Assembly: GCF_003790525.1 (NCBI RefSeq)
Contig: NZ_CP033636.1
Length of the DNA: 64,000 nt
Direction: 5' to 3' (one strand)
From: Escherichia coli
GTDB lineage: Bacteria > Pseudomonadota > Gammaproteobacteria > Enterobacterales > Enterobacteriaceae
Numbering within the stretch: the first letter of the stretch is position 1; every line of letters starts with the position of its first letter. Below are positions 44,031 through 59,521 of this stretch, in pieces. The notes below the pieces were generated by a model, which was not told the origin of the DNA, did no database searches, and saw nothing but the letters and a program-made list of their open reading frames with translations. A program made the position numbers and the translations under genes.

Positions 44031-44085
44031 GGTGATGCTGCCAACTTACTGATTTAGTGTATGATGGTGTTTTTGAGGTGCTCCA

Positions 44086-44361
44086 GTGGCTTCTGTTTCT
44101 ATCAGCTGTCCCTCCTGTTCAGCTACTGACGGGGTGGTGCGTAACGGCAAAAGCACTGCCGGACATCAGCGCTATCTCTGCTCTCACTGCCGTAAAACAT
44201 GGCAACTGCAGTTCACTTACACCGCTTCTCAACCCGGTACGCACCAGAAAATCATTGATATGGCCATGAATGGCGTTGGATGCCGGGCAACCGCCCGCAT
44301 TATGGGCGTTGGCCTCAACACGATTTTCCGCCATTTAAAAAACTCAGGCCGCAGTCGGTAA
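44086..44361 (+). CDS. insA: IS1 InsA
   Basis: 91-aa [43 protein letters not shown]. Confidence 0.95.
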
Positions 44362-44783
44362 CCTCGCGCATACAGCCGGGCAGTGACGTCATCGTCTGCG
44401 CGGAAATGGACGAACAGTGGGGATACGTCGGGGCTAAATCGCGCCAGCGCTGGCTGTTTTACGCGTATGACAGGCTCCGGAAGACGGTTGTTGCGCACGT
44501 ATTCGGTGAACGCACTATGGCGACGCTGGGGCGTCTTATGAGCCTGCTGTCACCCTTTGACGTGGTGATATGGATGACGGATGGCTGGCCGCTGTATGAA
44601 TCCCGCCTGAAGGGAAAGCTGCACGTAATCAGCAAGCGATATACGCAGCGAATTGAGCGGCATAACCTGAATCTGAGGCAGCACCTGGCACGGCTGGGAC
44701 GGAAGTCGCTGTCGTTCTCAAAATCGGTGGAGCTGCATGACAAAGTCATCGGGCATTATCTGAACATAAAACACTATCAATAA
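44280..44783 (+). CDS. insB: IS1 InsB
   Basis: 167-aa frame overlapping insA, consistent with the IS1 frameshift-fusion arrangement. Confidence 0.9.
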
Positions 44784-44964
44784 GTTGGAGTCATTACCGG
44801 CAGCTGCTTTTCAACGCGTGGTGTAACAATCGCGTCCCTAACACAGCGGTGCTGGCTCTTCTACTCCAGCAGTGCTTATCTCATTTCCAGTGCGAAGAAG
44901 TGATCGCAGCCTGGCAGTAACCCTATCAAGCCCCTTCGTATAGCGGAGGGGCAGGAGATATCTC

Positions 44965-46170: not shown

Positions 46171-46539
46171 ATGGGCGTTGATATCTGCTGGCGATTTCAA
46201 AGGGAAGAAAAGCCTGGTAAATGGATTAATTTATCAAGCAATTATAAAGGGGACCGATCATATCTCCACTTTGCCTGGCTCGGATTTGATGTAGATCGTG
46301 AAAGGGCGAGCACATCAGCAGTTTTTATCCACGCATTACGCGGATTACCTGATGATATACCGTCCGAAGATGATGATTTATTCGGTGAACATTCATACTC
46401 ATGGCTGACTTCGGAAGAAATTTTGTCAGCCATACCACCCGATAACGCCGGAGAGGTGATCCAGGAATTTGTCGAAGAAGTAAAGCGTCTCCACGTGGAG
46501 AACGGCAGCGTCCGTTTCGTCTTTGGATTTGAAGGGTAA
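46171..46539 (+). CDS. hypothetical protein
   Basis: 122-aa ORF. Confidence 0.4.
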   Translation: MGVDICWRFQREEKPGKWINLSSNYKGDRSYLHFAWLGFDVDRERASTSAVFIHALRGLPDDIPSEDDDLFGEHSYSWLTSEEILSAIPPDNAGEVIQEFVEEVKRLHVENGSVRFVFGFEG

Positions 46540-46971
46540 CCCGTAAGAAAGTAGCTATCTTACCCGGCTAGGTCTCCAATCTCTCAGATGCTCAAAGAGG
46601 GCCGGGCATGGTGCCCACACATCCCCTACCATTCCGATTTGATATTCGTCTAATACACCCTTTAAAGAAAACAAGCAGACGGCAATGAGACGTCGGATTA
46701 GCGTCAGCAAATATGAGACGTCAGTAGTCGATGTTTGTCCTGCGGAACGTGAATCTGTTTACAGGGGGTAAAGCCGTACCATCCATGAGGGCTCAGAGAG
46801 CCGGGGTCTCCTCCAGATCACTGGAAGTTATTGACTCTGGCAGGCCTATCCCTATGACTTTTTCCCGGATGGCAAATTAAGATCGAACAGGGCCAAATTA
46901 GTACTCTTTTCTAAACGGAAATACTGAATCACCCTGATATAACTGGTCTCTCACAAGACAGGAGATCATCA

Positions 46972-47274
46972 ATGGAACGTGTAATATTTTCAGTAATCTT
47001 TTTTATGATGCTGGGCGTACCTTTTTACCTTCTTTATAAAATTGCCCGGGACATTTTTGGGACCGCCGGTGCTGGTGAGCCTGCACAATTGCCTCAGGGC
47101 AAGCAAAGACGCTCAGGAGGCGCTGGTTCGGGTTCGATCTGGCAAGGACACCATCTACAGGGGAGCAGCCATTTGAACCCCCTCGGAGGTGATTGTAATG
47201 GTGAAAATAGCATAGCTGGTGGTTGTGATGGTGGCGGTGGAGGAGGAGGAGGAGGAGGTGGTGGTGGTGACTGA
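46972..47274 (+). CDS. small membrane-anchored protein with glycine-rich C-terminal tail
   Basis: 100-aa ORF with RBS gacaggag; N-terminal hydrophobic helix then a Gly-rich tail ending in a 13-Gly run encoded by mixed GGN codons. Confidence 0.4.
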   Translation: MERVIFSVIFFMMLGVPFYLLYKIARDIFGTAGAGEPAQLPQGKQRRSGGAGSGSIWQGHHLQGSSHLNPLGGDCNGENSIAGGCDGGGGGGGGGGGGGD

Positions 47275-47456
47275 TAGCCTGCAATTTTAACTATCAGGAT
47301 GAAACCCATGTCCAGCAACCGGAAAAAGAATTCATATCAACCGAAAAGCCCTGCCTTAAAGTGAAGCGTATTAAACGTGAAGGATGCTGAATTAGAGGGT
47401 ATCGGTTTTATACTGAAGCGTAACTGGAAGAAGGATCTGAAATTAACTATTACGGA

Positions 47457-47467
47457 AAAGTAACTTT
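47457..47467. repeat. AAAGTWACTTT palindrome copy
   Basis: exact aaagtaacttt in intergenic DNA. Confidence 0.6.
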
Positions 47468-47630
47468 CTGACTCACCACGTACGCCCCTCGGTTATGCCA
47501 TACAGTTTGATACGAAAACAGATCAGTAAGTAGATTGCTATACGCCGGAGAGAAGTCTATTTTTCATACACCGAACCTGTTTGGCCTGCAATGGAAGCAG
47601 GTATAATAATCACATACAAAGGAGGGCATT

Positions 47631-47915
47631 ATGAATAAATTTTTATACGTGCTTTTGGCCTGGATTGTTGTGCTTTTTATCGCCAACAAACTGCTCGCAA
47701 GACGTAAGCCCAAGACGGTTAAAATCCTGGTACAGCGCAACGGGAAAGCCGCAGAGGTTGATGCTGTAGTGGTTCAGGGTTCAAAGAGAGCTAACAACAG
47801 TTCTGTTGCGGACAGCGACGCGGTAGATAGTTATTTTGAAATGAATCCTTACTCCCGCGAAAACCAGTCGAATGGTTGGGCTATGCTGGCCAGAGACGAT
47901 GACCAGCTTAAATAA
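47631..47915 (+). CDS. hypothetical small membrane protein
   Basis: 94-aa ORF with RBS aaaggaggg; N-terminal hydrophobic helix. Confidence 0.45.
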   Translation: MNKFLYVLLAWIVVLFIANKLLARRKPKTVKILVQRNGKAAEVDAVVVQGSKRANNSSVADSDAVDSYFEMNPYSRENQSNGWAMLARDDDQLK

Positions 47916-48620: not shown

Positions 48621-49352
48621 CTAAGGCTTCTGCTTAGTGAACAGACTTGCCCACAGATAATGGATAAAGTTGAGCAGAATGTATGTTACTCGTTGCTCGA
48701 ATTTCATCGGGGCTTTGTACTTTGTCGTTATGTTGTGAATATGAGTAAGGTCCGTATAGAGCCCTAGCGACTTCCTTGTTGACTTCAACACCGAACAGAT
48801 GTGCTGAACAGACTCCGGTGTGAACAACCGTAGCCCTCGTCGTTGTTTGACTTTATGGATAAAATCGTCCATCCCCATACATAACCATTCCGGCTTGATG
48901 CCATCAAACTTACAACGTCCGTTTATGATGACGACATTGATACATTCCAGTTCTCTAGCCTTAAGAGCAGACTGAATAGCCCTGATGTGCCCCTGGTTTT
49001 GCTTAAACGGGTTCTGCAACTTGAGGGTTCGGGACTGAGTCCATTTCCGCCAGTGGCTTTCCTCCAGAGTACCGTAGAGCTTGCCTACGTAGTTTTTCTG
49101 CTCTATGACGTATATACCATGTGGGGCTACGAGAATGTGATCAACCTGAGTAGTGCTATGAGCCGACAACTGAAAGGTGAGATCACTAAGTAGCCCCTGA
49201 GCTTCTTCAGGAAGCCCAGATTCAATTGCCTTTGCAGTCCGCCGTTCCGCTATGGCAGAGGTCATAAAACCCAACAGACACAGCAACACGACGAAAATAA
49301 GGATAATGAAAGCTACCCCCGTAATGCTCCACAGCAGATTGAAAGCATCCAT
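48621..49352 (-). CDS. NERD-domain-like protein with N-terminal membrane anchor
   Basis: 243-aa ORF; hydrophobic N-terminus; VDHILVAPHGIYVIEQKNYVG resembles the nuclease-related domain core. Confidence 0.45.
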   Translation of the reverse strand: MDAFNLLWSITGVAFIILIFVVLLCLLGFMTSAIAERRTAKAIESGLPEEAQGLLSDLTFQLSAHSTTQVDHILVAPHGIYVIEQKNYVGKLYGTLEESHWRKWTQSRTLKLQNPFKQNQGHIRAIQSALKARELECINVVIINGRCKFDGIKPEWLCMGMDDFIHKVKQRRGLRLFTPESVQHICSVLKSTRKSLGLYTDLTHIHNITTKYKAPMKFEQRVTYILLNFIHYLWASLFTKQKP

Positions 49353-49353
49353 G

Positions 49354-50535
49354 TTACCTCACAGAGGGGTAGCTGGTGGCATTAACAGATTCTACCAAGC
49401 GGGTAGTGGTACCGGTAAGGCTCTCAATATTTGAAGACAGGCTCATCAGCATGCCGAGTGCAGAACGGAGATTACGATGAGGCTCATTGTAGTTTTTGAA
49501 CGTGTCAGTGGAGTACATTTTTGAAAGACGTGTACGGATCTCTACTGACGTAAGATCTCCATCCACCAGGCCGTACTTAACTGCCTGAGGTGTTGGCCAT
49601 ACACGGCCTGAATAGAGAGAAACAGCATCGGCATCATGACGCGAGAGAAGCTTTTTACCCCGTCCAAGTTCAACATCAGTTATAAATTTTTCATGCATCG
49701 TGTTCAGGATCTCCTTCTGCATGAACTCCCTCGTTGAATCGGACAATGGGTGGAAGGGGTCAAGAGCATCTTTGAACTCACCGGCCGTAAGGGGCTCATT
49801 CTTGACGCCTACTGTGCTCATGATCTCTGACAGATTCCAGTGGTCCATACGCACACCGATAGAACCGATCAGGGCATTACTGTCGGCATAAATTGCATCA
49901 GCGGGCGATACCGCGTAATAGCATGCGGATGCGCATATGCCTTTCACACTAACGATGATTGGTTTATATGAGTCTGCGATATCAGAGAAAAAACGACCGG
50001 TACCGCTGGAGAGTACTTCGAGGGAGTTTTGCTTCGACCGTGCTTCATCGCCACGTTCTGTGCTCCCGGTTTTGTTACTCTTGTCAGCGGCTACAGATGA
50101 AAGAGAGCAACCGGCATCTGATACGCGTTCAATCTGTGGCTGGTGGTTTTTAAGCGCGTTTATCTGGCGGTAAATAATGATGGCGTCAGAGGGACCACCA
50201 CCACCTGACTCTGCCTCGATAATAACTGCTTTGGCATGGGGATTATTGTAAGCTTTGGCAAGAGCTGTTGCGATCACTGTTCCATCGCCCGTTTCCGAGC
50301 CGGTACCCATCTCGCCAGAAATCCGTATTACAGCTATATGGTCTTTCTTCCCTTCAGCGTCCTGCCATTGTTCGTAAAGATTGTAGAAAGAAAACCCTAC
50401 AGCGGTCATGGCAATTAGCGACATAGCAACTTTTGCCGTGGTATGAATGCGAAACATCTTATAAAAACGGTCAGCGTTATCATTGAGCGATTCTTTGATA
50501 TTTGTAGGGGACTTCCTTTTTTTACTGCTTAACAT
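49354..50535 (-). CDS. S49-family peptidase (SppA-like)
   Basis: 393-aa ORF; N-terminal membrane anchor; SppA-like blocks HIAVIRISGEM, AVIIEAESGGG and IGSIGVRMDHWN. Confidence 0.55.
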   Translation of the reverse strand: MLSSKKRKSPTNIKESLNDNADRFYKMFRIHTTAKVAMSLIAMTAVGFSFYNLYEQWQDAEGKKDHIAVIRISGEMGTGSETGDGTVIATALAKAYNNPHAKAVIIEAESGGGGPSDAIIIYRQINALKNHQPQIERVSDAGCSLSSVAADKSNKTGSTERGDEARSKQNSLEVLSSGTGRFFSDIADSYKPIIVSVKGICASACYYAVSPADAIYADSNALIGSIGVRMDHWNLSEIMSTVGVKNEPLTAGEFKDALDPFHPLSDSTREFMQKEILNTMHEKFITDVELGRGKKLLSRHDADAVSLYSGRVWPTPQAVKYGLVDGDLTSVEIRTRLSKMYSTDTFKNYNEPHRNLRSALGMLMSLSSNIESLTGTTTRLVESVNATSYPSVR

Positions 50536-50545
50536 CTGACCACCT

Positions 50546-51226
50546 TTACATGAGTTTTTGAAAGTTAGACCACAAGCGATTCAATGCAATTCCCAGTATC
50601 AATAAAGCGACTGGTGGGAAAAGTTGAGCGATATTGTTAAATAGTGACATATTCGGCATGACCAGGTAGACCATCGTTAAAGCACTGATCACCCAAAATG
50701 CTCGAAACCAAATACGATAAAACTGAACTGTAACCTTACCAAATACGTACCTCTTCAATTTCCACTGGTACATTCCATCTGCTAGCATGGCAAATAGATA
50801 GGGCAGAAAAACGATTAGCCACCCCAGGATTAAGTTCCACCGGAAAATGGACTGATAAAGTAAGAGGGGTATGTTTTTGGCCATAGTGTAATTAATAGAG
50901 GTAAATTTTTCAGCAACAATGTTAATACCTCTGGCTGGTTTTTTGGTGTCAGGGATCAGAATAGTATTCAGATAGTCAATTAACTTATAGTCATGTACCA
51001 ACCAATTTAAAGTCGCTTCACTATTTGCAATAACAGACTTCCAACGGTCATTTGATATGATGGACCGGCTTGCATTAACCTCCTGAGTAATCTGATATTT
51101 GAGCTCCTCAGTATTCTGGAAAGCCAGGCTGTAACCAAAATAAATGACCATGCCAAAAAAAAGCATTGTTCTGAGCACTGCTGCTCTGCTTGTATTATCC
51201 GCAGCCATTGCTTTCCCTCCATTCAC
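50546..51226 (-). CDS. polytopic membrane protein, possible transfer-associated
   Basis: 226-aa ORF with several hydrophobic helices, in the same operon-like run as the coupling protein. Confidence 0.4.
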   Translation of the reverse strand: MNGGKAMAADNTSRAAVLRTMLFFGMVIYFGYSLAFQNTEELKYQITQEVNASRSIISNDRWKSVIANSEATLNWLVHDYKLIDYLNTILIPDTKKPARGINIVAEKFTSINYTMAKNIPLLLYQSIFRWNLILGWLIVFLPYLFAMLADGMYQWKLKRYVFGKVTVQFYRIWFRAFWVISALTMVYLVMPNMSLFNNIAQLFPPVALLILGIALNRLWSNFQKLM

Positions 51227-52307
51227 GAAAAAGAGCTAGCCTCTGATCGTGATTGCAATAGTTGTTACGCCACATCGTCGGGATACCCAGGAGCCAGTGG
51301 TACTGTTTAGGTATGATTTGGTCGATGAGGCTTAACTCCGCCAGTTCTTTATGCTCTGCGCTTTTCCACTCGATCTGTCCCACATCAGGAACAAATACAG
51401 CGGTCCTTACTTTTGCGGCCTGGCGGGAAAATTCTATAAAGTTGATGCCCCACGGCGTCCAGTATCTGTACTGCTCGTTTAGGCCGATGTTAAACACCGG
51501 CAGAGAAAGAGTTGAGTCGGCAAAAGCCGAAATCACATTTTTGCAGACTCTTGGACTATCTATTTTTTCCTGTTCGGTTTTGAGATGAGTCAGCAGTGCA
51601 CGGTCAATAATGCTGTTAAAGGTGTTTGTATAAAGGCCATTAGGGTCAGGAAGCCGATCTATGGCAGTAATGATTTTAAATTTTAACCGAGAAAGAAAGG
51701 GAGAGTCCTCAATAGTAACTATATGACTATGTGTTGTTTCTGGATGAATCTGGGGTTTGATGCGCTGTACTTGTTTAAAAGAGACACTACCTGGCAAATT
51801 AATGAATGCGCCCACCGTGCGTGTCAAATCGACGAAATAAGGCAAAAGATAACAACCAAGCATACGGGCATTCTTCTTTACAAGATCACACCGTTCGTCA
51901 TTGTTATCGAAAGAAATACGGAAACTAACGAATTTACGTTCAGGACCTTCGCTGGTGGTCAGCGATTGAATCCATTCATGGCATGAACCTTGTGGTACCG
52001 ACCAGTAGCTGGTTTCACGGTCCCCAAAGGGATCAGTCGTGATCAACTCTCCCTTTAAAAGGAAAAGCTCAGACAGGGTATTTGCCATGGAGAATAGGGA
52101 ATCGATATCGTTGCTCTGACAAAATTTTCCCAAATGATGAAACGCGTTTTTTTCTATCTTAGTTAGCCGATCTCGAACTTCCTGAGAATCTGCGTACTTT
52201 AAACCCAAAGACTGAAAGCGCCTTTTTACGAGCGAGCGACATTTGCTGACTTTTAGTGCAGAGCTTAAAATTTGCTGGCGCGTCAGGACAATTTTTTCAT
52301 CCATCAA
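51195..52307 (-). CDS. hypothetical protein
   Basis: 370-aa ORF overlapping the coupling-protein stop by 4 bp. Confidence 0.45.
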   Translation of the reverse strand: MMDEKIVLTRQQILSSALKVSKCRSLVKRRFQSLGLKYADSQEVRDRLTKIEKNAFHHLGKFCQSNDIDSLFSMANTLSELFLLKGELITTDPFGDRETSYWSVPQGSCHEWIQSLTTSEGPERKFVSFRISFDNNDERCDLVKKNARMLGCYLLPYFVDLTRTVGAFINLPGSVSFKQVQRIKPQIHPETTHSHIVTIEDSPFLSRLKFKIITAIDRLPDPNGLYTNTFNSIIDRALLTHLKTEQEKIDSPRVCKNVISAFADSTLSLPVFNIGLNEQYRYWTPWGINFIEFSRQAAKVRTAVFVPDVGQIEWKSAEHKELAELSLIDQIIPKQYHWLLGIPTMWRNNYCNHDQRLALFREWRESNGCG

Positions 52308-54388
52308 TGAAACTTCCTTAGAAATTTATTAAGATTTTTGATATCGAGATTTTGACGCAAAGTAACTTTTCCGGCCTTCTTGAAAAGCATTTCCGACAGA
52401 GTTGTGTTTGGCTTCATTTGTTTCTCAGCAACAGCAATAGGGATTTGGCCTACAACCTTCCTGCCATCTTGAAGCCTGGCAACTATGTGAAACATAGGGA
52501 CCTGACCCAAGAGATCCTTTGGAATACTCTCTTCTAAAGTTGTCTGCTTTCTTTCTGAGATTGAACCTGAGAAGTTATTATGCGGCAAAGATGTTTCTGA
52601 ACCGGTCGTATAAGTGACCATATTTGTGCTTATCGCACTCTTACCAAAGTTCTCTACAACAAGCGTCTGAGTAGGAGTATCGTTGACTCGCAAGCTTATA
52701 TAATTGTTGCAGAGCCCCGTAATTCGATTGGCAGTTTCAACACTTGCCGCAGCAATAAAGTCGGAGATGGTTTGGGTGCAAATAAACAGTGCAATTTTCG
52801 CTGCACGACCCTGCGCCAGAAGGTTAATCATAGGGTTGTTAATGGCTGAGTGTGCCTCATCAACAAAAATACTTATCCTGGAATTAGCTGACATATCACC
52901 ATCCTGAGCGTTGTAGCGACTACCGGCACAGGAGGTCAGATCTGACATTATTAATTGAGAAATAGCAGCTGCTGTATCGGGGTTTGAAAGGCCATCAAGC
53001 GAAATGTATAGCACCCCGCCAGTGCTGAACATCCCTTCGCTTGTTACAATTTCTCTTGATGATACTGAGTTCGGGTTAGGAGATAAAAGCTCATTTAAAG
53101 GTTTTTCAATGAGCATATCGAAAACAGGCATAATACCTGCGGTCATTTTAGCCATATGCTCTGGGTCGGACATTGAGTAATCAATAAGCTGGGAAACAGT
53201 ATCTAACCAGTCTATTTGTTCGGACCCCTCGTAATTCATGAAATGAGCCGTAAACCATTCAGCGAGACGCTTGAAACGTACCGGCAAGGTTTCGTTAGCG
53301 ACGTACTTAACTTTTTCGGTCCAGACATCGTAACCATAATATCTCGCGTAACATGACTCCATTACCTTGACTGTAAGATTCACAATAGACATGTGGCTTT
53401 TCATGTTCTTGTGAATCAGATAAATAGAAGGCTTTTTCTCTATGTAAGAAAGCCCGGAAATCACATTGGAAACGAGAGCCTTGGCATACTGAACGAATGG
53501 GTTAACCTCACCGGGAACTGTCACCAAGCTCAAAAGACGAGATGTTAGGTCAGAAACATTAGTATAGGTGTTGCAGACATCAATACAGACCGAAGATGCT
53601 GGCTGGCCAGGATGAAATTTATAGAAAGGAAGACCGAGGGTCTTAGCCTCTTCCATTAGAGATTCTCGCCACTCTGCATCGTTCTTTGGATCTATGACAA
53701 CAACAACATGACCAAGATGAAGCATGCTAATGCTTAGTAAACGCTGTAGCACCGTTTTCCCGGTACCCACGTTTCCGGTTATCAGAGTATGACCAAACCA
53801 ATTGTCTTCAGTTACAAATATGGGTTCCCTACGTTCCACAGCAAAAATTGCATTGCTGCCGCCCATCTTACGAGCCATTGCGTCAAAATGTCTCTTAATT
53901 GGGTTGAAGACGAATGGCAACTCGATCTCACGTTTATCACTGGAGAGGTTAGCTATTTGATATGCCCGATCCGCATGTTCCGGGCCCCACTCAAACCCAT
54001 CACAAAAATAGGACTTTCGCTCGGGTATATCCTTATTTTTATTTTGATAATCCTGAACCAGTTGACGATACTTTCGCTCATTGGAGAAAAAGTTACTTTT
54101 GTTAATTACACGCAGTGAATCAAGACTAACGAACATGAAATGTCGCTTGAATACACGCCAATGAGCCATCAAGAATGGCGCTGCTGTTTTGCAACGATAA
54201 AGGCACAGCAAAAAAAGCAATATTGAGGTGAACAGAACTATTGGGGCGATGTCCAGTCCGTCTGAAGAAAGTCCCATATAAAGCATAGAAACCGAACAAA
54301 TCAAAAGTATTGAGGCACTACGATACTCAAGAATAGGCCGATAAAAATTCTCTTGTGCATGGAGGTTAGTCCTCTTCGAATCTGACAT
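52304..54388 (-). CDS. type IV coupling protein (TraG/TraD/VirD4 family)
   Basis: 694-aa ORF; two N-terminal membrane helices; Walker A GNVGTGKT and hydrophobic strand VVVVIDPKND; adjacent to the relaxase. Confidence 0.7.
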   Translation of the reverse strand: MSDSKRTNLHAQENFYRPILEYRSASILLICSVSMLYMGLSSDGLDIAPIVLFTSILLFLLCLYRCKTAAPFLMAHWRVFKRHFMFVSLDSLRVINKSNFFSNERKYRQLVQDYQNKNKDIPERKSYFCDGFEWGPEHADRAYQIANLSSDKREIELPFVFNPIKRHFDAMARKMGGSNAIFAVERREPIFVTEDNWFGHTLITGNVGTGKTVLQRLLSISMLHLGHVVVVIDPKNDAEWRESLMEEAKTLGLPFYKFHPGQPASSVCIDVCNTYTNVSDLTSRLLSLVTVPGEVNPFVQYAKALVSNVISGLSYIEKKPSIYLIHKNMKSHMSIVNLTVKVMESCYARYYGYDVWTEKVKYVANETLPVRFKRLAEWFTAHFMNYEGSEQIDWLDTVSQLIDYSMSDPEHMAKMTAGIMPVFDMLIEKPLNELLSPNPNSVSSREIVTSEGMFSTGGVLYISLDGLSNPDTAAAISQLIMSDLTSCAGSRYNAQDGDMSANSRISIFVDEAHSAINNPMINLLAQGRAAKIALFICTQTISDFIAAASVETANRITGLCNNYISLRVNDTPTQTLVVENFGKSAISTNMVTYTTGSETSLPHNNFSGSISERKQTTLEESIPKDLLGQVPMFHIVARLQDGRKVVGQIPIAVAEKQMKPNTTLSEMLFKKAGKVTLRQNLDIKNLNKFLRKFH
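52359..52369. repeat. AAAGTWACTTT palindrome copy inside coding sequence
   Basis: exact aaagtaacttt within the 3' end of the coupling-protein gene. Confidence 0.4.
54089..54099. repeat. AAAGTWACTTT palindrome copy inside coding sequence
   Basis: exact aaagttacttt within the 5' part of the coupling-protein gene. Confidence 0.4.
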
Positions 54389-57300
54389 TATAGGTTCCCA
54401 GCCTCTTTCAGGTTATTGATAATTCGTTCAATGTCCACTTTCGCCCGGTCTGATGCGGCCAGCAAAGTAGGCATGTTAAATGCATGGCATTTTGTATTGA
54501 TCACAGCACCAGAATTAACGAGGTACTGAGGAAGCTTATTGAAAAGATCTTGAGCCTCTAACTGCGACCCAAATTTTTCCACGCAAGATTGGGTCAGATA
54601 GAGAGTATTAGGAGTACTTACCATAAATCTGTTTTTGCGCTTTCTTTTAAACGCCACCTCCATTTTGGACAGAATTTGATGCAGTACTGACGCAATTTCT
54701 ACAAATTCAAGCTCTGTAACGTCACCTTCGCTTATAAGCGAGAATTCACCATTTTGGTCTGATTCAGTAGTTGCAAAGACTTTACTGTTCAGATTGTGAC
54801 CAGAAACAGGTGATGCTGGTTTTTGTACTTCTGCTTTGTCCGATGATTTATTCCGGTTGCGCTTGGGATTTTGTTTTTCTACCGGTGCTGTTGGGGCGAA
54901 CAGTCTGGCCAGTGCTGGCGAAAGATGATGCCCCTTAGCGTCTGTGGGCGCATGCTCTCCATTTGATTCTTCAAGTACAGGAGGTAAGGCGGGCTCTTCA
55001 CTTGCCATCACACTGGTTGCGGCTGCTTCGGTCTGGGAATACACAACTTCAGCTGGTGGTGGGCAGTTACCCTCAGTATCTGGTTCTGAGTTTTCTTGTC
55101 CTACAGAAACATCCATAGAGCGTTCAATCGTACCCTGGGGATCAGCGTTCTGTTCTCGGTTAAGTTCTGGTAATTCTGACGGCTCGGGGAGAAGCTTTTC
55201 ATTATGGACCGAAGAGCTTGTTGCACAACTACCGACTTCTGGCCGAGAAACACTAAGCTGTGTGAAATCGGTATAATCAATGATCTCATGCTCTTCATCT
55301 TCTTCCTCAAAAAGATGTTGATAATGTTCATATTCCACAGCCTCAGTTTTCAGCGGACCAGTCGCGGATGCACTATCGGTTCCATGATATTCCACGTCGC
55401 CAGAATGTTCTTCGACTGCATTTACACGTGGGGGAGGCAGCTCAAGCGTTTGCTTTGGACGTGGGGCAGAGTTTTCAACAGAAGACTCATCATTAATCAC
55501 TAATGCCTGATACATAGAAGTATTGAAAAGTGACTTTAAAGTTGTTGGCCTTCTTGGCTCATGATAGGTGAGCTGGAACCCGGCGCAGTTATCGCCGAGC
55601 TGGACTAAACGCAGATCGTCAATGTCCCTTACTATCCACATTCCATCGAGAGAGCCTTCTCTGAATGTCAGTTGGAAATAGGGCTCTTCACTAAATGCTT
55701 TTTCATCTAATCCCGGCAGCAATGCCATAGTGGCATCTATGTTGAGGTAGGGGACAGCATCTACACACACTATATAGTCATTGGAAAGTGGAGCGCTTAA
55801 AAGGAGTTCATGAAGTTGGTTGACCAGGACATGGGATTCCGTGTCCTTTGCCGATTCATCTTCACTTTCTTCTATATCAGGAATGACAGGATCAGCTGCT
55901 TCCTCACCCTCAGATTTAACTATCTGCGTGTCATTATCAATTTCATTATCACTTTCGGCTTTCTTCTCAAAATCGTCGGATGAGCCTTCATTTTTCTTAG
56001 AATGTATATCAACATCAATAGAGGCAGTGGAGCGGCCTAAATCATTAACCTTAAGAACAGCCGTCTCAACAGTATCAGTAATTTTAGTTATAGCGTCCCG
56101 ACCGGGCACTGGTCTTCTGTATTCAGTAACTGTTTTTTGCTCGTCAATGTAAATAAAGTCTTTATTGGCATTAACGCTAAAAAGACCCGGCACTGAGTCA
56201 GGGATTTTATAGGAATCAAAGATTAAACCAATCCACCTTAGCTTAAGAAGGTTATAGAATTCTAGTTTCCCTATCCCATTTCTAAAGATGTTTGATATTT
56301 CGTTTTCCGAATAGATACCCGGAATGAAGTAGTGAACGACACGCTCATCATCATAGGGCTCGACGTAACCACGTTGAACTAGGGATTCTACCAATACCGT
56401 CTTACCAGCCTCTCCCTGAGGGAAGTTATATTTATGTAATTCGAAATCATTGAGAACAAAATCAAGGAATGCGTTCTCGTTAAGGTATACCTCACCATTT
56501 ACGATAATGATGTGCATAGGCTTAGCATTGTAATTGTTGATATTGATACTGGTAAAGTTGTGCTTGATGGTACTAATGGCCCTTGCTGCTGCATCATTAG
56601 AACGCAGACCCATGATAGGGTCACGTAAAACATTAAGGTCTGTACCAGTAGAATAGAAATCAGCGGTCCTCACGCATTTAGACAAAAAGTCATTCCCATC
56701 AGTATAAACGTTTAGGGCGGTGATCATTTTTGAATAAACACGTTCTTTATTTACCCGATCCAAAAATGCAAGACATACCGGGTTTAGGATTCGCTCAAGG
56801 AAAACGCTGGACCAGATATTATGTTGATTATGAATACGCTTTCGCCAGTGGATTTCGTATTCAACCACGTCATTTTCACGTGCCCAGTCAAGAAGACTTT
56901 GTGAGCTTGGCGTCCAAATGATCGGACTAGCTAAATTCAGGCTTACAATATCGAGATCGTAAACCTTTCCGGCATCATGGACTAAACCACAGATAAACGC
57001 AGCATAGAGATATACTTTTCTACGGACTACTTCTTCATCTTGATATCCGATTGGTCTCAGTTCTGAGTGATGCGCATTTTTTAAAGAGAGTATGGCCACT
57101 TCCAGGCTGTGAGAAAGTAACCCACCAATACCATTATGATGATGATTTTCGGAAGCTGGCAAAAGATGTATCCAGCGAACATATTCAACCAAGGGCTTTA
57201 ATACTAAATTAGTAAATGTATATGCATCGTCCCTGATGTCGCTATCGCTGATAGCTAACATCATTGAAATTGAGTGCAGCTTTTCCCGATACAGAGACAG

Positions 57301-57540: not shown

Positions 57541-57543
57541 ACC

Positions 57544-58281
57544 TTATCGACGTTTGCCTGACAGTTCGGCTGCAATGTATGCCTGCACACTTTTATATTG
57601 CATTACTTTGGTGATGAACTCTGCTGGACTGTATGGCCCATCCTTACGGCGAGAAACATTCAGAGTCTTTTTCACATTCTCAACATATAAATTAATACTC
57701 TTTATAATGTTGTGAGACATAACCGGATAGTCGCTTACAGCCAGTAAACCCAATGAGTTGTACTCATACATTGTGTTCATGAGCTGGTTCATCTCGAAGA
57801 TGTACTTGTAAAACCTCATGGTGTTGTGGTTATTGAAGTTGAGTTGTACTGGTTCAAAACTGAAAGGTACAAACTGAGTTGATGACATGAATGAGTCATT
57901 CTTGTCGAACTCAATTGACTTAATATAAGCAACAAGATTTTCTTTCATCTTATTGTTTTCTTCATGCAGCTCGTTGAACCAATCCTGAATAGCCTGAACA
58001 AGGTCAGGATGTTTAACTGCATCAACCGTTTTAAAGAGAGAGGAAATAGCGATACTCACATCATCAAAACCTCTGATGACTGCTCCATTTCTGGCAGTTA
58101 AAAACCGGTTAAAATCTGGGGTGCCGGGGTTAATAATAACTTTGGCCATACCCTGGTGCTCTGGTCTACGTTGAGTAGAAGTTTGAGCGTTTACGCCTTG
58201 CTTTTTATTTGAACCTTTTACCATTACATCTTTTGGTTCAATGTTAATACGCTCATTGTCCGTGATAATTGCGTCGGTCAT
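57544..58281 (-). CDS. hypothetical protein upstream of relaxase, possible relaxosome accessory protein
   Basis: 245-aa ORF, 4 bp upstream of the relaxase gene. Confidence 0.4.
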   Translation of the reverse strand: MTDAIITDNERINIEPKDVMVKGSNKKQGVNAQTSTQRRPEHQGMAKVIINPGTPDFNRFLTARNGAVIRGFDDVSIAISSLFKTVDAVKHPDLVQAIQDWFNELHEENNKMKENLVAYIKSIEFDKNDSFMSSTQFVPFSFEPVQLNFNNHNTMRFYKYIFEMNQLMNTMYEYNSLGLLAVSDYPVMSHNIIKSINLYVENVKKTLNVSRRKDGPYSPAEFITKVMQYKSVQAYIAAELSGKRR

Positions 58282-58817
58282 TGTGCCACCTTAGTTTTTG
58301 AGTATTGACGGATTTTTCGTCCAAGTTCGATATATGCTGAATGATAGAGCTCAAGCATTTCTCTGTAAGGCTCCAGCAATGCTTCCGTTTCAGAAATCAT
58401 TTCGTATTCCCAGCTGGCATGGTTTACAAAACAGTTCTTAGAATATTTTCCACTTTTCATTGGTTGCACCCGTTTTGACATGTGACTAGGCGCTCTTGTT
58501 TTATAAGGGCTGAACTGATGCCAAGTGATCGTTACTTTTCTGGCATTACCAATTAGCTCAACTTTTGGTGCGTAAGAACCCAGATACTCCCTCTTTGGAA
58601 CTTTGCTATGTCGGGTAAGGTTAATCTCTTGGTGGTTTCGTTCCTTCCACTTGATCCAGTATTTTGTAATGAGATCTTCAGCCTCAACACGCAAACCTTC
58701 AATCTGAGCACGTAAATTTTTACGTGTTAGCTCTATAGAACTTATAAGATTCGAATTACTCATGACGCCTCCTGATGTGAAATTACTATACCGGAGGAAA
58801 TTTCCGTTTTTTTTCAC
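58278..58817 (-). CDS. hypothetical protein, first gene of the relaxase operon
   Basis: 179-aa ORF overlapping the next gene by 4 bp; faces the candidate oriT. Confidence 0.4.
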   Translation of the reverse strand: MKKNGNFLRYSNFTSGGVMSNSNLISSIELTRKNLRAQIEGLRVEAEDLITKYWIKWKERNHQEINLTRHSKVPKREYLGSYAPKVELIGNARKVTITWHQFSPYKTRAPSHMSKRVQPMKSGKYSKNCFVNHASWEYEMISETEALLEPYREMLELYHSAYIELGRKIRQYSKTKVAQ

Positions 58818-58949
58818 GAACAGAAGATTTTTGAATGCTCTTTGATGAGGGAATTGAACAGATGTAATGCACTCGCTGTTTCCCCCATTCGGGAGGGGCC
58901 TTCAGAAACAGTAACAGCGAGTTTAGCCTCACTTCCATCGCTACCCTCT

Positions 58950-58960
58950 AAAGTTACTTT
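58950..58960. repeat. AAAGTWACTTT palindrome copy
   Basis: exact aaagttacttt in the divergent intergenic region. Confidence 0.6.
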
Positions 58961-59044
58961 TGAGGGAATGACCATTGTGGATTATTGCTTTTGATAATGT
59001 GCATTGCTCTATTAAAGTTATACATATATCTAGTGCCACTTTTC

Positions 59045-59200
59045 CAAAAAAAATGACCCTATGGAACTTTGTCCATAGTGACACTTTTATAAAAAGTGAC
59101 CCTATGACGACATTACATAGGGTCACTTTTCAAACATAAGTGACCCTATGTGAGGTATTCATAGGGTCACTTTTCTTTGTTTAGTGATCCTATGTAAGCA
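59045..59200. other. candidate oriT / relaxosome binding region
   Basis: five copies of AAGTGACCCTATG in direct and inverted orientation, forming two perfect 15-bp inverted repeats with 9-10-bp spacers, between divergent transfer operons. Confidence 0.45.
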
Positions 59201-59434
59201 TGAGGTTGATGAAAAGTAAAAATGTCAGTTTATGACGGTCAGTGAAAGACGTCGTTATTCTAATCCAACGTTGGGAGGGGCTGGATTTAGGTTTTTTTTT
59301 AATCGCTTCACATTTCGTTAGCATGCGAAGAAATTTTGATAAAATTCTGGTCAGTTTGGTTAAAAAGTGTTACAAGTAAGCGGTGTGGTTGAAGGGATAG
59401 ATTTAAGGCTTATTCAAGCCTTAAGAAAATACTA

Positions 59435-59445
59435 AAAGTTACTTT
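59435..59445. repeat. AAAGTWACTTT palindrome copy
   Basis: exact aaagttacttt, about 80 bp upstream of the 59522 start. Confidence 0.6.
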
Positions 59446-59521
59446 TCACCCTACCGAACACCTAACAAAAAATCCATGTTGAAGATTTGAACAATTGTAA
59501 TGGCGCAAGGACAATCAGCAC

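What the first reader, a model, noticed from the sequence alone, without database searches (positions are those of the whole stretch)
46972..47274. Small membrane protein with a 13-glycine tail
A 100-aa ORF with a good RBS encodes an N-terminal hydrophobic helix followed by a Gly/Ser-rich segment ending in a 13-Gly run. The composition is reminiscent of glycine-rich bacteriocin or microcin precursors, although no double-glycine leader or immunity and export genes are evident. The opposite-strand poly-proline ORF is its mirror image.
Basis: partly seen in the sequence, partly recalled or inferred. Interest (0 to 1): 0.4.

Follow-up and report, generated by a model that had tools for sequence, protein, structure and literature searches.

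The report
Small membrane protein, Cys-Gly-Asp tail
The ORF is a real but dispensable backbone gene of IncHI resistance plasmids that encodes a membrane-anchored protein, and its glycine tail is an expanded copy of a little-studied C-terminal ending (Cys, a few Gly, then Asp) found on many membrane proteins across bacterial phyla, not a bacteriocin.

Summary
**Observation:** confirmed. The ORF at 46972..47274 (+) encodes 100 aa. It has an AGGAG ribosome-binding site, one N-terminal hydrophobic helix, a disordered Gly/Ser/His/Asp/Cys tail and 13 consecutive Gly codons followed by a final Asp.

**Context:** the window is IncHI2 plasmid backbone. The same ORF occurs in about 980 plasmid records as a "hypothetical protein".

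**Is it a gene?** At the same syntenic slot, IncHI1-type plasmids (R27, pHCM1, p8025 and others) carry a 77-91 aa ORF with the same architecture, ending ...AGGGCGGGGD.
- Only this frame is open in every lineage.
- All indels between lineages are multiples of three.
- dN/dS is 0.43-0.67.

**The glycine run:** it is polymorphic in IncHI2 (G3 to G13, with or without internal Asp). I read it as a triplet-slippage expansion.

**The ending:** it is widespread. More than 120 species encode proteins ending GGGCGGGGD. In an unbiased sample of one such family, 118 of 120 members end Cys-Gly(2-5)-Asp. Some of these proteins are TIGR04222 proteins, which are suspected substrates of MNIO enzymes. IncHI plasmids encode no MNIO enzyme.

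**Bacteriocin reading:** not supported. There is no leader, exporter, immunity gene or synthetase, and the tail is predicted to be cytoplasmic.

**Dispensability:** natural Tn10, IS26 and frameshift knock-outs show the gene is not required. Its function remains unknown.

The parts
46935..46943 (+). Candidate extended -10 promoter element, TGATATAAC (inferred, not shown)
   Evidence: This is read directly from the sequence. IncHI1-type copies have TGATATAAA at the equivalent distance upstream of the Shine-Dalgarno sequence. In those plasmids the upstream gene ends in a terminator-like hairpin, so this ORF would need its own promoter. The consensus scan did not list the site because there is no -35 match.
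46960..46964 (+). Shine-Dalgarno sequence AGGAG, 7 nt before the ATG
   Evidence: IncHI1-type copies have AGGAG 7-8 nt before their second ATG, which is the start that PGAP uses in R27.
46972..47274 (+). Coding sequence of the 100-aa small membrane protein (identical at DNA level to the copy annotated WP_000442694.1 in pSTM6-275)
   Evidence: The ORF is listed and annotated. It is the only frame free of stops in all seven copies examined. dN/dS is 0.43-0.67 in the IncHI1-type clade, and all indels between lineages are multiples of three.
46981..47037 (+). Hydrophobic transmembrane segment, residues 4-22 (VIFSVIFFMMLGVPFYLLY)
   Evidence: The AlphaFold2 model gives a helix at residues 2-33 with block-mean pLDDT of 78-88. 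An equivalent 19-residue N-terminal hydrophobic segment is present in every family member.
47038..47112 (+). Juxtamembrane stretch carrying the basic residues K23, R26, K44, R46 and R47, which predicts an N-out / C-in topology
   Evidence: This is read from the sequence. IncHI1-type members have RNKK or RARNKK directly after the helix. The same bias is seen in unrelated proteins with this tail: K+R averages 3.7 after the last TM segment and 0.87 before it. The topology is an inference.
47113..47271 (+). Disordered Gly/Ser/His/Asp/Cys tail, residues 48-100, including Cys75 (47194-47196) and Cys85 (47224-47226) and ending AGGC-D-G13-D
   Evidence: Block-mean pLDDT is 42-51 from residue 31 to the C-terminus. 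The composition matches that of tails ending C-Gn-D in other phyla (G 0.40, S 0.21, D 0.14, C 0.07).
47230..47268 (+). Run of 13 Gly codons, GGT GGC GGT (GGA)6 (GGT)4, a polymorphic triplet repeat
   Evidence: After AGGCD, the alleles seen are G13-D (window), G12-D, G9-D, G3-D, G8AG3-D, G6-D-G6-D, G6-D-G5-D, G5-D-G5-D and G6-D-G4-A-D. All are in frame and all keep the terminal Asp.
47269..47274 (+). Terminal Asp codon (GAC) and stop codon (TGA)
   Evidence: The terminal Asp is kept in every intact allele and lineage. It is also kept in 118 of 120 members of an unrelated tail-bearing family that was sampled through its N-terminal domain only.
47118..47119 (.). Point at which Tn10 (IS10 end CTGATGAATCCCC...) interrupts the ORF after codon 49 in a sublineage of IncHI2 plasmids
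   Evidence: The 64-aa fusion product P0013 is seen on 460 contigs. Its downstream genes match Tn10: an IS10-type DDE transposase, then TetR and an MFS pump. The junction sequence is shown, and (H69) shows a record where the match stops at this point.

Best explanation
**What it is.** This is a genuine protein-coding gene of the IncHI plasmid backbone.
- The product is a small single-pass inner-membrane protein. An N-terminal helix anchors it.
- Basic residues after the helix probably keep the rest of the chain in the cytoplasm.
- The remaining ~70 residues are an intrinsically disordered, acidic Gly/Ser/Asp/Cys tail.

**Which part matters.** I take the functional part of the tail to be its end: a Cys, then a short Gly run, then a C-terminal Asp. 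IncHI1-type plasmids end ...AGGGC-GGGG-D. IncHI2 plasmids end ...AGGC-D-Gn-D.

**How common the ending is.**
- The same ending, preceded by the same kind of low-complexity sequence, closes many otherwise unrelated membrane proteins in many phyla. These include TIGR04222 'near_uncomplex' proteins, PF27765 'glycine-rich domain-containing' proteins and small anchor-plus-tail proteins in Actinobacteria and elsewhere.
- In those families the number of Gly between Cys and Asp varies, while Cys and Asp stay fixed.
- The 13-Gly run in this window is therefore a triplet-slippage expansion of a naturally variable spacer, not a special feature in itself.

**Shown.**
- The gene is real and conserved.
- Its architecture is a helix followed by a disordered tail.
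- The Gly tract is polymorphic.
- The C-Gn-D ending is widespread and non-random.
- No bacteriocin machinery or MNIO gene is present on IncHI plasmids.
- The gene is dispensable.

**Inferred.**
- The topology, with the tail in the cytoplasm.
- The promoter.
- The working mechanism. I propose that the protein presents a flexible, membrane-tethered thiol/carboxylate end that either binds a ligand (most plausibly a soft metal ion or a partner protein) or is recognised by an enzyme.
- In some bacteria that enzyme could be an adjacent MNIO enzyme, a family known to modify Cys and C-terminal Asp. In the IncHI setting the tail would act unmodified, as an accessory factor rather than a factor essential for replication or transfer.
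For: **Real gene.**
- The ORF and ribosome-binding site are seen.
- It is present in 977-987 plasmid records, nearly all at least 95% identical, and is annotated as a CDS.
- Positional counterparts with the same architecture occur in p8025 and pPSP-75c (91 aa) and in IncHI1A, R27 and pHCM1 (77/84 aa). More lineages appear. R27 annotates its copy as WP_000925846.1.
- Only the sense frame is stop-free in all seven copies.
- Among IncHI1-type lineages dN/dS is 0.43-0.67, with dS (0.28-0.48) like that of neighbouring genes. Every indel is a multiple of three. The last 12 codons differ only synonymously.

**Architecture.** AlphaFold2 gives a helix at residues 2-33 and disorder for the rest.

**Tract polymorphism.**

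**Widespread ending.**
- 117 of 120 pattern matches close an ORF with a start codon, and 103 of those ORFs are at least 70 aa; they have G/S/D/C tails.
- The hits include TIGR04222 proteins, a large PF27765 superfamily and small anchor-plus-tail proteins.

**Unbiased test.** 120 PF27765 homologues were retrieved with the N-terminal domain only. 118 of them end C-G(2-5)-D.

**MNIO link.**
- MNIO genes (PF05114, E = 2e-80) lie directly beside small tail proteins in L109 and L121, and overlap the tail ORF as called in L106. They lie within about 5 kb in 7 of 120 loci.
- The literature describes TIGR04222 C-terminal Ser/Gly/Cys regions as suspected MNIO substrates. It also shows that MNIO enzymes modify Cys and C-terminal Asp (PMC12452194).

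**Cytoplasmic prediction.** Basic residues follow the TM segment here and in the other tail proteins.

**Dispensable.** Tn10 after codon 49 on 460 contigs, IS26 at codon 79, another insertion at codon 82, and a frameshift allele on 81 contigs.
Against: - There is no direct evidence of transcription or translation. The p8025 proteomics study appears not to have had this ORF in its database, judging from the gene lengths implied by its table. The mapping of the R27 microarray probe R0112 (low signal, 92/165) to this gene is unverified.
- Sequence statistics do not establish homology between the IncHI2 and IncHI1-type proteins. hhalign without the terminal run gives probability 1.3%, and an exhaustive phmmer search with the IncHI2 protein found only IncHI2 copies. 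The link rests on synteny, architecture and the tail.
- Constraint is weak. dN/dS is higher than in neighbouring genes. In the most divergent IncHI2-type copy (L007) the ORF differs more than its flanks and carries a 1-nt deletion.
- The window allele does not have the canonical ending. An Asp sits between the Cys and the Gly run.
- Low-complexity tails can converge.
- The authors of PMC12452194 predict a periplasmic location for TIGR04222 tails, which is opposite to my inference.
- No partner, ligand or phenotype is known, and frequent natural knock-outs show that any benefit is small or conditional.
Confidence: 0.6

Rival explanations
1. The ORF is an exported glycine-rich bacteriocin or microcin precursor (class II microcin, or microcin B17-like). 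Its N-terminus would be removed and the Gly-rich part secreted to kill competitors.
For: The composition is Gly/Ser/Cys-rich and the gene is plasmid-borne. There is a superficial likeness to McbA, which has a poly-Gly run followed by a Gly/Ser/Cys core (from my own knowledge, not tested here). Two family members gave a non-significant match to PF25184, a YxzE-like putative bacteriocin family (E = 0.12).
Against: - There is no double-glycine leader. The N-terminus is a 19-residue hydrophobic anchor followed by basic residues.
- No YcaO/McbBCD-type synthetase, C39-ABC exporter, HlyD-type protein or immunity gene is annotated across ~72 kb around the gene in pSTM6-275.
- No Pfam, NCBIfam or PADLOC family matches.
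- The tail is predicted to be cytoplasmic.
- The gene is a conserved backbone gene in both IncHI1 and IncHI2 plasmids, yet it is often knocked out.
Confidence: 0.03
2. The effector is the transmembrane helix. The protein would be a small membrane-active toxin (type I toxin-like addiction module) or a helix that modulates a host membrane protein. The Gly tail would be an unconstrained spacer.
For: - The N-terminal helix is the best-predicted part of the protein.
- The first 49 residues are retained in the Tn10 fusion allele seen on 460 contigs.
- Tail length varies freely.
- Many plasmids carry small hydrophobic toxins, and a Hok-family toxin is annotated elsewhere on the same plasmid.
Against: - At 77-100 aa the protein is longer than typical type I toxins.
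- No antisense promoter-like site lies in or next to the ORF, and there is no Rfam match.
- The helix sequence is poorly conserved between lineages, whereas the extreme C-terminus is the most conserved part in IncHI1-type lineages, with synonymous changes only.
- The same ending is kept on unrelated proteins, which argues that the tail is under selection.
Confidence: 0.12
3. The ORF is a functionless or decaying open reading frame that hitch-hikes in the plasmid backbone. Its resemblance to other Gly/Cys tails would be convergent low complexity produced by GGN-repeat slippage.
For: - Constraint is weak: dN/dS is 0.43-0.67, and in L007 the ORF diverges more than its flanks and has a 1-nt deletion.
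- There are repeated natural disruptions.
- The pNDM-MAR-type IncHI1B Klebsiella lineage lacks it.
- There is no statistically significant sequence similarity between the IncHI2 and IncHI1-type proteins.
- Codon usage is uninformative.
Against: - The frame stays open in every lineage at dS of about 0.3-0.5, while all five other frames contain stops.
- At least six indels are all multiples of three, including ones outside the repeat.
- dN/dS is below 1.
- The Shine-Dalgarno spacing and the -10-like element are conserved.
- The exact nine-residue ending GGGCGGGGD plus stop is shared with more than 100 other species. From the measured tail composition the chance expectation is about 1.6e-5 per protein (my calculation).
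- 118 of 120 members of an independently sampled family keep C-Gn-D.
Confidence: 0.12
4. The protein is a substrate of a modifying enzyme supplied in trans by the host or by another plasmid, such as an MNIO enzyme. The enzyme would convert the tail Cys or the C-terminal Asp into a metal-binding or reactive group, making this a membrane-tethered RiPP-like product.
For: - Small anchor-plus-tail proteins ending GGGCGGGGD sit directly next to MNIO genes in L109 and L121, and overlapping one as called in L106.
- TIGR04222 tails are suspected MNIO substrates.
- MNIO enzymes modify Cys (bufferins, oxazolins, methanobactins) and C-terminal Asp (ApyHI) (PMC12452194).
- DUF692 genes do occur on some 45-110 kb E. 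coli plasmids and on some large Enterobacter, Citrobacter and Providencia plasmids.
Against: - tblastn with one MNIO query (E <= 1e-3) returned no record of IncHI size or host profile among those listed, and Salmonella, which holds hundreds of IncHI records, is not among the ten commonest hit genera.
- Only 7 of 120 tail loci have an MNIO gene within 5 kb.
- One third of genomes with TIGR04222 genes lack MNIO genes altogether.
- Typical hosts (E. coli, Salmonella) could not be screened at protein level with these tools.
Confidence: 0.1

Closest known systems
TIGR04222 ('near_uncomplex') domain-containing membrane proteins
   Same: These are membrane-anchored proteins that end in an unstructured Ser/Gly-rich region with interspersed Cys. 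Two proteins from my pattern scan that end ...CGGGCGGGGD match TIGR04222 (E = 4e-21 and 6e-33). PMC12452194 describes these tails and their frequent, though not universal, association with MNIO genes.
   Different: The IncHI proteins have no TIGR04222 domain. They have only one TM helix, are 77-100 aa long, are plasmid-borne in Enterobacteriaceae, and have no MNIO gene nearby or elsewhere on the plasmid.
PF27765 / 'glycine-rich domain-containing protein' family (N-terminal TM helix, MPSQVVD..WHEFIL..LHHTPA domain, Cys/Gly tail)
   Same: Both have an N-terminal TM helix followed by a basic patch and a C-terminal G/S/D/C low-complexity tail ending C-G(2-5)-D. The Gly number varies between close relatives, exactly as in the IncHI2 alleles.
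   Different: The IncHI proteins lack the ~150-residue conserved domain and the YCASHIGC..GCSGDSG motif. They consist of the anchor and tail only.
Small anchor-plus-tail proteins found in the scan, for example L035 (Mycobacteriaceae, 66 aa), L099 (Streptomyces, 70 aa), L123/L141 (66-70 aa) and L109/L121 (83-91 aa, next to an MNIO gene)
   Same: They share the whole architecture: an N-terminal hydrophobic helix (with a basic patch after it in most), a G/S/D-rich linker and the ending ...GGGCGGGGD-COOH, in a protein of similar size.
   Different: There is no detectable sequence similarity outside the tail, the taxa and genomic contexts differ, and no neighbouring genes are shared with the IncHI locus.
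Microcin B17 precursor McbA and class II (double-glycine leader) microcins
   Same: They are plasmid-encoded, small and Gly-rich, with Cys/Ser. McbA also contains a long Gly run (from my own knowledge).
   Different: McbA has a leader peptide rather than a membrane anchor. The adjacent synthetase (McbBCD), export (McbEF) and immunity (McbG) genes have no counterpart here. The double-glycine leader and C39 exporter of class II microcins are also absent.

Membership tests
Class II microcins / double-glycine-leader bacteriocins | An N-terminal 15-25 residue leader ending in GG/GA that is cleaved by a C39 peptidase | tested here: not met
   The N-terminus is MER followed by a 19-residue hydrophobic segment and then KIAR. 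AlphaFold2 models it as one helix, residues 2-33. No leader-like amphipathic segment is present.
Class II microcins / double-glycine-leader bacteriocins | Adjacent C39-ABC exporter, accessory protein and immunity gene | tested here: not met
   None is annotated in about 72 kb around the gene in pSTM6-275. Pfam scans of the neighbouring ORFs found only NERD and S49 peptidase.
Microcin B17-type (thiazole/oxazole-modified) peptides | A cyclodehydratase/dehydrogenase (McbBCD, YcaO-type) encoded next to the precursor | tested here: not met
   No such gene is annotated in the surrounding ~72 kb.
Microcin B17-type (thiazole/oxazole-modified) peptides | A Gly/Ser/Cys-rich core peptide | tested here: inconclusive
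   The tail is rich in Gly, Ser, Asp and Cys, with two Cys in the window protein. This composition alone is not specific.
TIGR04222 domain-containing membrane proteins | A match to the TIGR04222 domain model | tested here: not met
   NCBIfam scans of 12 IncHI family members gave no TIGR04222 hit. Control tail proteins from the scan do match it.
TIGR04222 domain-containing membrane proteins | An unstructured C-terminal Ser/Gly-rich region with Cys | tested here: met
   The family description comes from PMC12452194.
Proteins with a C-Gn-D-COOH low-complexity tail (class defined here) | A transmembrane segment followed by a basic patch upstream of the tail | tested here: met
   In the window protein the TM segment is residues 4-22, followed by K23, R26, K44, R46 and R47. 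IncHI1-type proteins have RNKK or RARNKK. Across the class, K+R averages 3.7 after the last TM segment and 0.87 before it.
Proteins with a C-Gn-D-COOH low-complexity tail (class defined here) | A Gly/Ser/Asp/Cys-dominated disordered C-terminal region | tested here: met
   The class composition is G 0.40, S 0.21, D 0.14 and C 0.07.
Proteins with a C-Gn-D-COOH low-complexity tail (class defined here) | A chain that ends Cys-Gly(2-5)-Asp-stop | tested here: inconclusive
   IncHI1-type relatives meet this exactly (C-GGGG-D). The window allele ends C-D-G13-D: the Gn-D end is present but expanded, and an Asp follows the Cys. The window protein's relationship to the IncHI1-type proteins rests on synteny and architecture, not on sequence statistics.
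MNIO-modified RiPP precursors or proteins | An MNIO (PF05114/DUF692) gene in the same gene cluster | tested here: not met
   No MNIO gene is annotated near the ORF. tblastn of an MNIO protein against 72,556 plasmids gave hits in other plasmid types, not in IncHI plasmids.
MNIO-modified RiPP precursors or proteins | A chemically modified Cys or C-terminal Asp in the mature product | not testable with these tools
   This needs mass spectrometry of the native protein. The candidate target residues are present: Cys75, Cys85 and Asp100.
Type I toxin-antitoxin toxins | A very small hydrophobic peptide (usually under 60 aa) with an overlapping or adjacent antisense RNA gene | tested here: not met
   The protein is 77-100 aa. 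No promoter-like site lies on the minus strand at 46900-47500, and there is no Rfam family in the window. Toxicity itself was not tested.

The most novel reading that the evidence does not exclude
The ending Cys-Gly(n)-Asp-COOH on a disordered Gly/Ser/Asp tail would be a distinct, phylum-spanning C-terminal functional module. It could be a recognition or modification signal, or a thiol/carboxylate metal-binding end, held at the cytoplasmic face of the membrane.

The IncHI plasmid protein would be its minimal, mobile form: anchor plus tail and nothing else. That would give a genetically tractable E. coli/Salmonella system, complete with natural knock-out and tract-length alleles, for working out what this 'uncomplex' tail does. 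One possibility is a link to the metal-stress biology for which IncHI2 plasmids are known.
Probability: 0.25. Interest if true: 0.7.

Novelty: new variant of a known kind. Interest (0 to 1): 0.45.

Why it matters
- **Clinical relevance.** IncHI1 and IncHI2 plasmids are major carriers of multidrug, colistin and heavy-metal resistance in Salmonella, E. coli and Enterobacter. Most of their backbone genes are uncharacterised, and this one is unannotated or annotated in the wrong frame in many IncHI1-type records.
- **A link to a larger class.** The ORF connects a plasmid backbone gene to a large, barely described class of membrane proteins with Gly/Cys 'uncomplex' tails. Their only published lead is a suspected relationship with MNIO enzymes.
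- **A testable question.** If the C-Gn-D ending is a real functional module, the plasmid protein is the simplest natural version of it, it sits in a model host, and natural knock-outs are already available.
- **A practical point.** The GGN repeat breaks short-read assemblies and produces frameshift artefacts, which explains the many 'partial' database entries.

Tried and rejected
**Searches that found nothing useful**
- Pfam, NCBIfam, PHROGs, PADLOC and PDB sequence searches of the protein and of a 12-member family alignment gave nothing significant.
- An exhaustive phmmer search of 1.84 billion representatives with the IncHI2 protein found only IncHI2 copies.
- An Rfam scan of the whole window found nothing.
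- The promoter/terminator scan found no sigma-70 site directly upstream and no antisense site.
- Literature searches for the RefSeq accession, for glycine-rich proteins of IncHI plasmids and for the string CGGGGD found nothing relevant. The CGGGGD hits do not concern this motif; the one I opened was a primer-sequence artefact.
- The neighbours of the IncHI gene have no homologues next to other tail proteins.

**Tests that did not discriminate**
- Codon adaptation of sense and antisense frames is similar (0.78 against 0.80).
- hhalign of the IncHI2 group against the IncHI1-type group, without the terminal run, was not significant.
- An IncHI2 experimental-evolution paper contained nothing specific to this gene.

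**Expression evidence**
- The R27 microarray table lists R0112 with low signal, but I could not verify that R0112 is this ORF because the original GenBank record is not held.
- From the gene lengths implied by the GC fractions in Table S3, the p8025 proteomics database appears to have lacked this ORF, so it is uninformative.

**Ideas considered and dropped**
- A link to the cyclisation of the IncHI pilin TrhA (Gly1-Asp69). That reaction needs cleavage of five residues after the Asp, and this protein ends at its Asp.
- A Gly-codon attenuator for the downstream gene. The long run is specific to IncHI2, and the downstream gene has its own conserved promoter.
- A lipoprotein. IncHI2 has no lipobox Cys.
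- The antisense poly-Pro ORF as the real gene. It is interrupted by stops in other lineages.

**Distribution**
- The pNDM-MAR-type IncHI1B Klebsiella lineage was checked for a counterpart and has none.
Full report
**1. The observation**

The sequence holds an ATG ORF at 46972..47274 (+) of 100 aa:

MERVIFSVIFFMMLGVPFYLLYKIARDIFGTAGAGEPAQLPQGKQRRSGGAGSGSIWQGHHLQGSSHLNPLGGDCNGENSIAGGCDGGGGGGGGGGGGGD

- AGGAG lies at 46960-46964, 7 nt before the ATG.
- Residues 4-22 are hydrophobic.
- Thirteen Gly codons, GGT GGC GGT (GGA)6 (GGT)4, occupy 47230-47268. Tandem Repeats Finder reports a period-3 array there.
- The mirror-image antisense ORFs exist: poly-Pro at 47094..47318 (-) with a TTG start, and His/Leu at 47003..47284 (-).

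**2. Where the window comes from**

- The 1.2 kb around the ORF matches 987 plasmid records, 923 of them at 99% identity or more. They come from Escherichia, Salmonella, Enterobacter and Klebsiella, and almost all are conjugative plasmids of 200-380 kb.
- In pSTM6-275 (IncHI2A, MOBH, MPF_F) the ORF is annotated as hypothetical protein WP_000442694.1.
- It sits in a row of small same-strand hypothetical genes that starts with a 394-aa gene.
- That 394-aa gene is annotated "DNA-binding protein" in IncHI1-type records and has a weak HTH_ParB hit.
- The row runs convergently into the end of the Tra1 operon: NERD, S49 peptidase, DUF4400/TraJ, TraD, the MobH relaxase and MobI.
- No microcin-type synthetase, exporter or immunity gene is annotated across about 72 kb around the ORF.

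**3. Is it a gene?**

Direct sequence searches find only near-identical IncHI2 copies. This holds for the word-based search and for an exhaustive phmmer search of 1.84 billion representatives. No Pfam, NCBIfam, PHROGs, PADLOC or PDB match is significant.

Synteny gave the answer. Both flanking genes have IncHI1 homologues at 45-60% identity. At the same slot in those plasmids there is an ORF with the same architecture.

| Plasmid | Position | Protein |
|---|---|---|
| p8025 and Pantoea pPSP-75c | L010:4413..4688 | MTHRISLVLMILHIVLTLYVVVCLFCCLFLRARNKKALCHSQTEGRRYTQDSKRGGIADGNGSFFTPDTSGGDGGCGGGGDAGGGCGGGGD |
| IncHI1A, R27, pHCM1 | L011:2932..3186 | ...MLLNIALILYVAVCLYLCLRNKKALYRFQGGGRQFTQSSKSGANTGESGFFLISGYSDTGVGGDSGDAGGGCGGGGD |

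A profile search added further lineages (P0027, P0028, P0031, P0033, P0035), all in the same gene order.

Annotation is inconsistent:
- RefSeq annotates the R27 copy (WP_000925846.1, 77 aa).
- p8025 carries an off-frame 50-aa call instead.
- Many IncHI1 records, including pHCM1, list nothing under the match.

Evidence that the frame is translated:
- It is the only one of six frames without a stop in seven copies.
- Among IncHI1-type lineages dS is 0.28-0.48, like the neighbouring genes, and dN/dS is 0.43-0.67. Neighbours give 0.06-0.46.
- All indels between lineages are multiples of three, including ones outside the Gly repeat.
- The last 12 codons (GDAGGGCGGGGD) differ only at synonymous sites.
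- AGGAG lies 7-8 nt before the likely start in all lineages. A TG-N-TATAA(C/A) element lies about 20-45 nt upstream of the start codon.

Caveats:
- Constraint is weak.
- The most divergent IncHI2-type copy (L007, a Logan contig) has a 1-nt deletion and diverges more inside the ORF than in its flanks.
- hhalign cannot demonstrate homology between the IncHI2 and IncHI1-type proteins once the terminal run is removed (probability 1.3%).
- Codon adaptation does not separate sense from antisense.
- No expression data could be tied to the ORF.

**4. Anatomy**

- AlphaFold2, run with the family alignment, gives one helix at residues 2-33 with block-mean pLDDT of 78-88. Block-mean pLDDT is 42-51 from residue 31 to the C-terminus.
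- Basic residues follow the helix: KIAR and later KQRR in IncHI2, RNKK or RARNKK in IncHI1-type proteins. Almost none precede it.
- The positive-inside rule therefore predicts N-out / C-in, which places the tail in the cytoplasm. This is an inference.

**5. The glycine run is polymorphic**

After ...AGGC-D, IncHI2 plasmids carry the following alleles:

| Allele | Source |
|---|---|
| G13-D | window |
| G12-D | L024 |
| G9-D | P0050 |
| G3-D | P0055 |
| G8-A-G3-D | P0047 |
| G6-D-G6-D | L008 |
| G6-D-G5-D | L022 (WP_000442693.1), from the class of about 430 records at 95-99% identity |
| G5-D-G5-D | L023 |
| G6-D-G4-A-D | P0002 |

- All alleles are in frame and all keep the terminal Asp.
- IncHI1-type proteins have a fixed C-GGGG-D.
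- The 13-Gly run therefore looks like a lineage-specific slippage expansion of a short Gly spacer.
- Many database entries of 86-94 aa are labelled partial and break off inside the Gly run. I take this to mean that short-read assemblies break at the repeat; I did not check contig ends.

**6. The gene is dispensable**

- P0013 (64 aa, seen on 460 contigs) is the ORF cut after codon 49 by Tn10. The IS10 end sits at window position 47118/47119, and the downstream genes match Tn10: an IS10-type DDE transposase, then TetR and an MFS pump.
- P0004 is an IS26 junction at codon 79, identified from the IS26 inverted-repeat sequence as I know it.
- P0003 is another insertion, at codon 82.
- P0046 (81 contigs) is a frameshift in a C5 run that removes the whole tail.
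- The pNDM-MAR-type IncHI1B Klebsiella lineage has no counterpart.

**7. The ending is widespread**

I scanned one genome per species (100,044 species) for DNA encoding GGGCGGGGD followed by a stop.
- 117 of 120 pattern matches close an ORF with a start codon, and 103 of those ORFs are at least 70 aa; these have Gly/Ser/Asp/Cys tails.
- The taxa include Burkholderiales, Rhodocyclales, Methylococcales, Pseudomonas, Rhizobiales, Verrucomicrobia, Planctomycetes, Chlorobi, Mycobacterium and Streptomyces.

The proteins fall into unrelated groups:
- One large superfamily accounts for 83 loci. It has an N-terminal TM helix and an MPSQVVD..WHEFIL..LHHTPA domain. It is pre-assigned to PF27765 and named 'glycine-rich domain-containing protein'.
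- TIGR04222 'near_uncomplex' membrane proteins.
- Several other families.
- Small proteins with exactly the IncHI architecture, for example:
  - L035: MSASQVVMLIIAVIGLLAPLAIVWQKRVDRRRGETTWRAGGEFGGIGGDGGGAGGSCGGGCGGGGD
  - L099: ...VFIAWGVWAVVIAVILVRTRRRSVRRDGRRSRSWWADGGGSSGGASCGGGSSCGGGGCGGGGD
  - L123/L141 and L109/L121

The scan pattern itself fixed the ending, so I ran an unbiased test. I retrieved 120 PF27765 homologues using only the N-terminal domain.
- 118 of the 120 end C-G(2-5)-D: CGGGGD in 46, CGGGD in 32, CGGD in 34 and CGGGGGD in at least 5.
- Cys and the terminal Asp are fixed, while the number of Gly drifts. This is the same behaviour as the IncHI2 alleles.
- From the measured tail composition (G 0.40, S 0.21, D 0.14, C 0.07), a random tail would end GGGCGGGGD with probability of about 1.6e-5 (my calculation).
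- In these proteins K+R averages 3.7 in the 15 residues after the last TM segment and 0.87 before it. This again predicts that the part of the chain after the last TM segment, including the tail, is cytoplasmic.

**8. What is known about such tails**

- The only literature I found is the 2025 survey of MNIO enzymes (PMC12452194).
- It describes TIGR04222 proteins as having unstructured C-terminal Ser/Gly-rich regions with interspersed Cys, often but not always next to MNIO (DUF692) genes.
- It proposes that subsets of them are MNIO substrates.
- One third of genomes with TIGR04222 genes have no MNIO gene.
- MNIO enzymes are known to modify Cys and also C-terminal Asp, as in ApyHI.
- In my scan an MNIO gene (PF05114, E = 2e-80) lies directly beside the small tail proteins in L109 and L121, overlaps the tail ORF as called in L106, and lies within about 5 kb in 7 of 120 loci.
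- tblastn of an MNIO protein against all 72,556 plasmids hits other plasmid types. These include some 45-110 kb E. coli plasmids and a few large Enterobacter, Citrobacter and Providencia plasmids, but no IncHI-type record among those listed.
- The motif string itself does not appear in the searchable literature.

**9. Interpretation**

- The most economical reading is that the ORF encodes a small bitopic membrane protein that consists only of the anchor and the tail of this class.
- The G13 run is an expanded spacer.
- The ORF is not a secreted bacteriocin precursor.
- How the tail works is not known for any member of the class.
- My best inference is that a flexible, membrane-tethered end bearing a thiol and a C-terminal carboxylate is either a ligand-binding module (for a metal or a partner protein) or an enzyme-recognition module.
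- On IncHI plasmids it would act unmodified and would confer at most a conditional benefit.
- The rivals are listed with their tests: the helix as the effector, a decaying ORF, modification in trans, and a true bacteriocin.

**10. Novelty and score**

- As a hypothetical protein the gene is already in databases.
- Three findings were not in any source I could search. It forms a positional family across IncHI1 and IncHI2. Its Gly tract is a polymorphic expansion. Its ending is the same C-Gn-D module that closes TIGR04222, PF27765 and other membrane proteins across phyla.
- I rate it a new variant of a known (though barely characterised) kind.
- Interest is moderate because no function or phenotype is in hand.

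Noticed in passing
window 44057-44830: An IS1 element (InsA ORF 44086..44361, InsB ORF 44280..44783) lies just upstream of the 145-aa gene. In pSTM6-275 a 98-aa gene sits there with no IS, so this plasmid has an extra insertion in the small-gene row.
   Followed up: partly
window 47560-47630 (upstream of the 94-aa gene at 47631..47915): A block is almost invariant between IncHI2 and all IncHI1-type lineages. It holds a TATAAT -10 element (extended TG form in IncHI1-type plasmids) and an AAGGAGG ribosome-binding site for the downstream small TM protein. In the R27 microarray the probe R0113, probably this gene, is among the most highly expressed at both temperatures (2633/2687).
   Followed up: partly
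L010:4413-4734 (p8025, NZ_KP899803); pHCM1 NC_003384 212526-212826: RefSeq annotates an off-frame 50-aa ORF (WP_158654571.1) in p8025 instead of the conserved 91-aa ORF. Many IncHI1 records, including pHCM1, list no gene under the match (the PLSDB gene table is incomplete).
   Followed up: yes
window 46171-46539, compared with L010:3820-4056 and L011:2341-2577: The slot just upstream of the ORF holds a 122-aa gene in IncHI2 but a DUF905 gene in IncHI1-type plasmids, where it is followed by a terminator-like hairpin (AACCCGGTAAC.CCGGGTTTCTTTTTT). IncHI1 plasmids carry a 45%-identical homologue of the 122-aa protein at a different locus.
   Followed up: partly
window 48621-59522: The Tra1 'H operon' ends in a NERD-domain protein (48621..49352, -) and an S49 peptidase (49354..50535, -). 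The NERD protein weakly matches the PglW and MkoA defence models. The MobI-like gene at 58278..58817 (-) and the divergent gap up to 59522 probably contain oriT.
   Followed up: no
window 47217-47269, and protein clusters P0042-P0054: Hundreds of database entries for this protein are 'partial' forms of 86-94 aa that break off inside the Gly run. Singleton frameshift variants are also common. The GGN repeat appears to break or corrupt assemblies; I did not check contig ends.
   Followed up: partly
loci L025-L144 (PF27765-type proteins): The large 'glycine-rich domain-containing protein' family has a conserved Cys/His motif (YCASHIGC..GCSGDSG) just before its C-Gn-D tail. By the positive-inside rule the tails look cytoplasmic, which disagrees with the periplasmic location proposed for TIGR04222 tails in PMC12452194.
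   Followed up: partly
L019:9457-10551 (Klebsiella IncHI1B/IncFIB plasmid): The pNDM-MAR-type lineage keeps only the 118-aa neighbour next to the NERD gene and lacks the Gly-tail gene. Nearby it encodes a 364-aa Ser-rich protein with a hydrophobic N-terminal segment that looks like a signal peptide, of unknown function.
   Followed up: no
window 47119 equivalent in L002:6147: The Tn10 insertion site in the ORF (CGCTCAGGA) resembles the Tn10 target consensus GCTNAGC (from my own knowledge). The recurrent disruption may therefore reflect a hotspot as well as clonal spread of one event.
   Followed up: no
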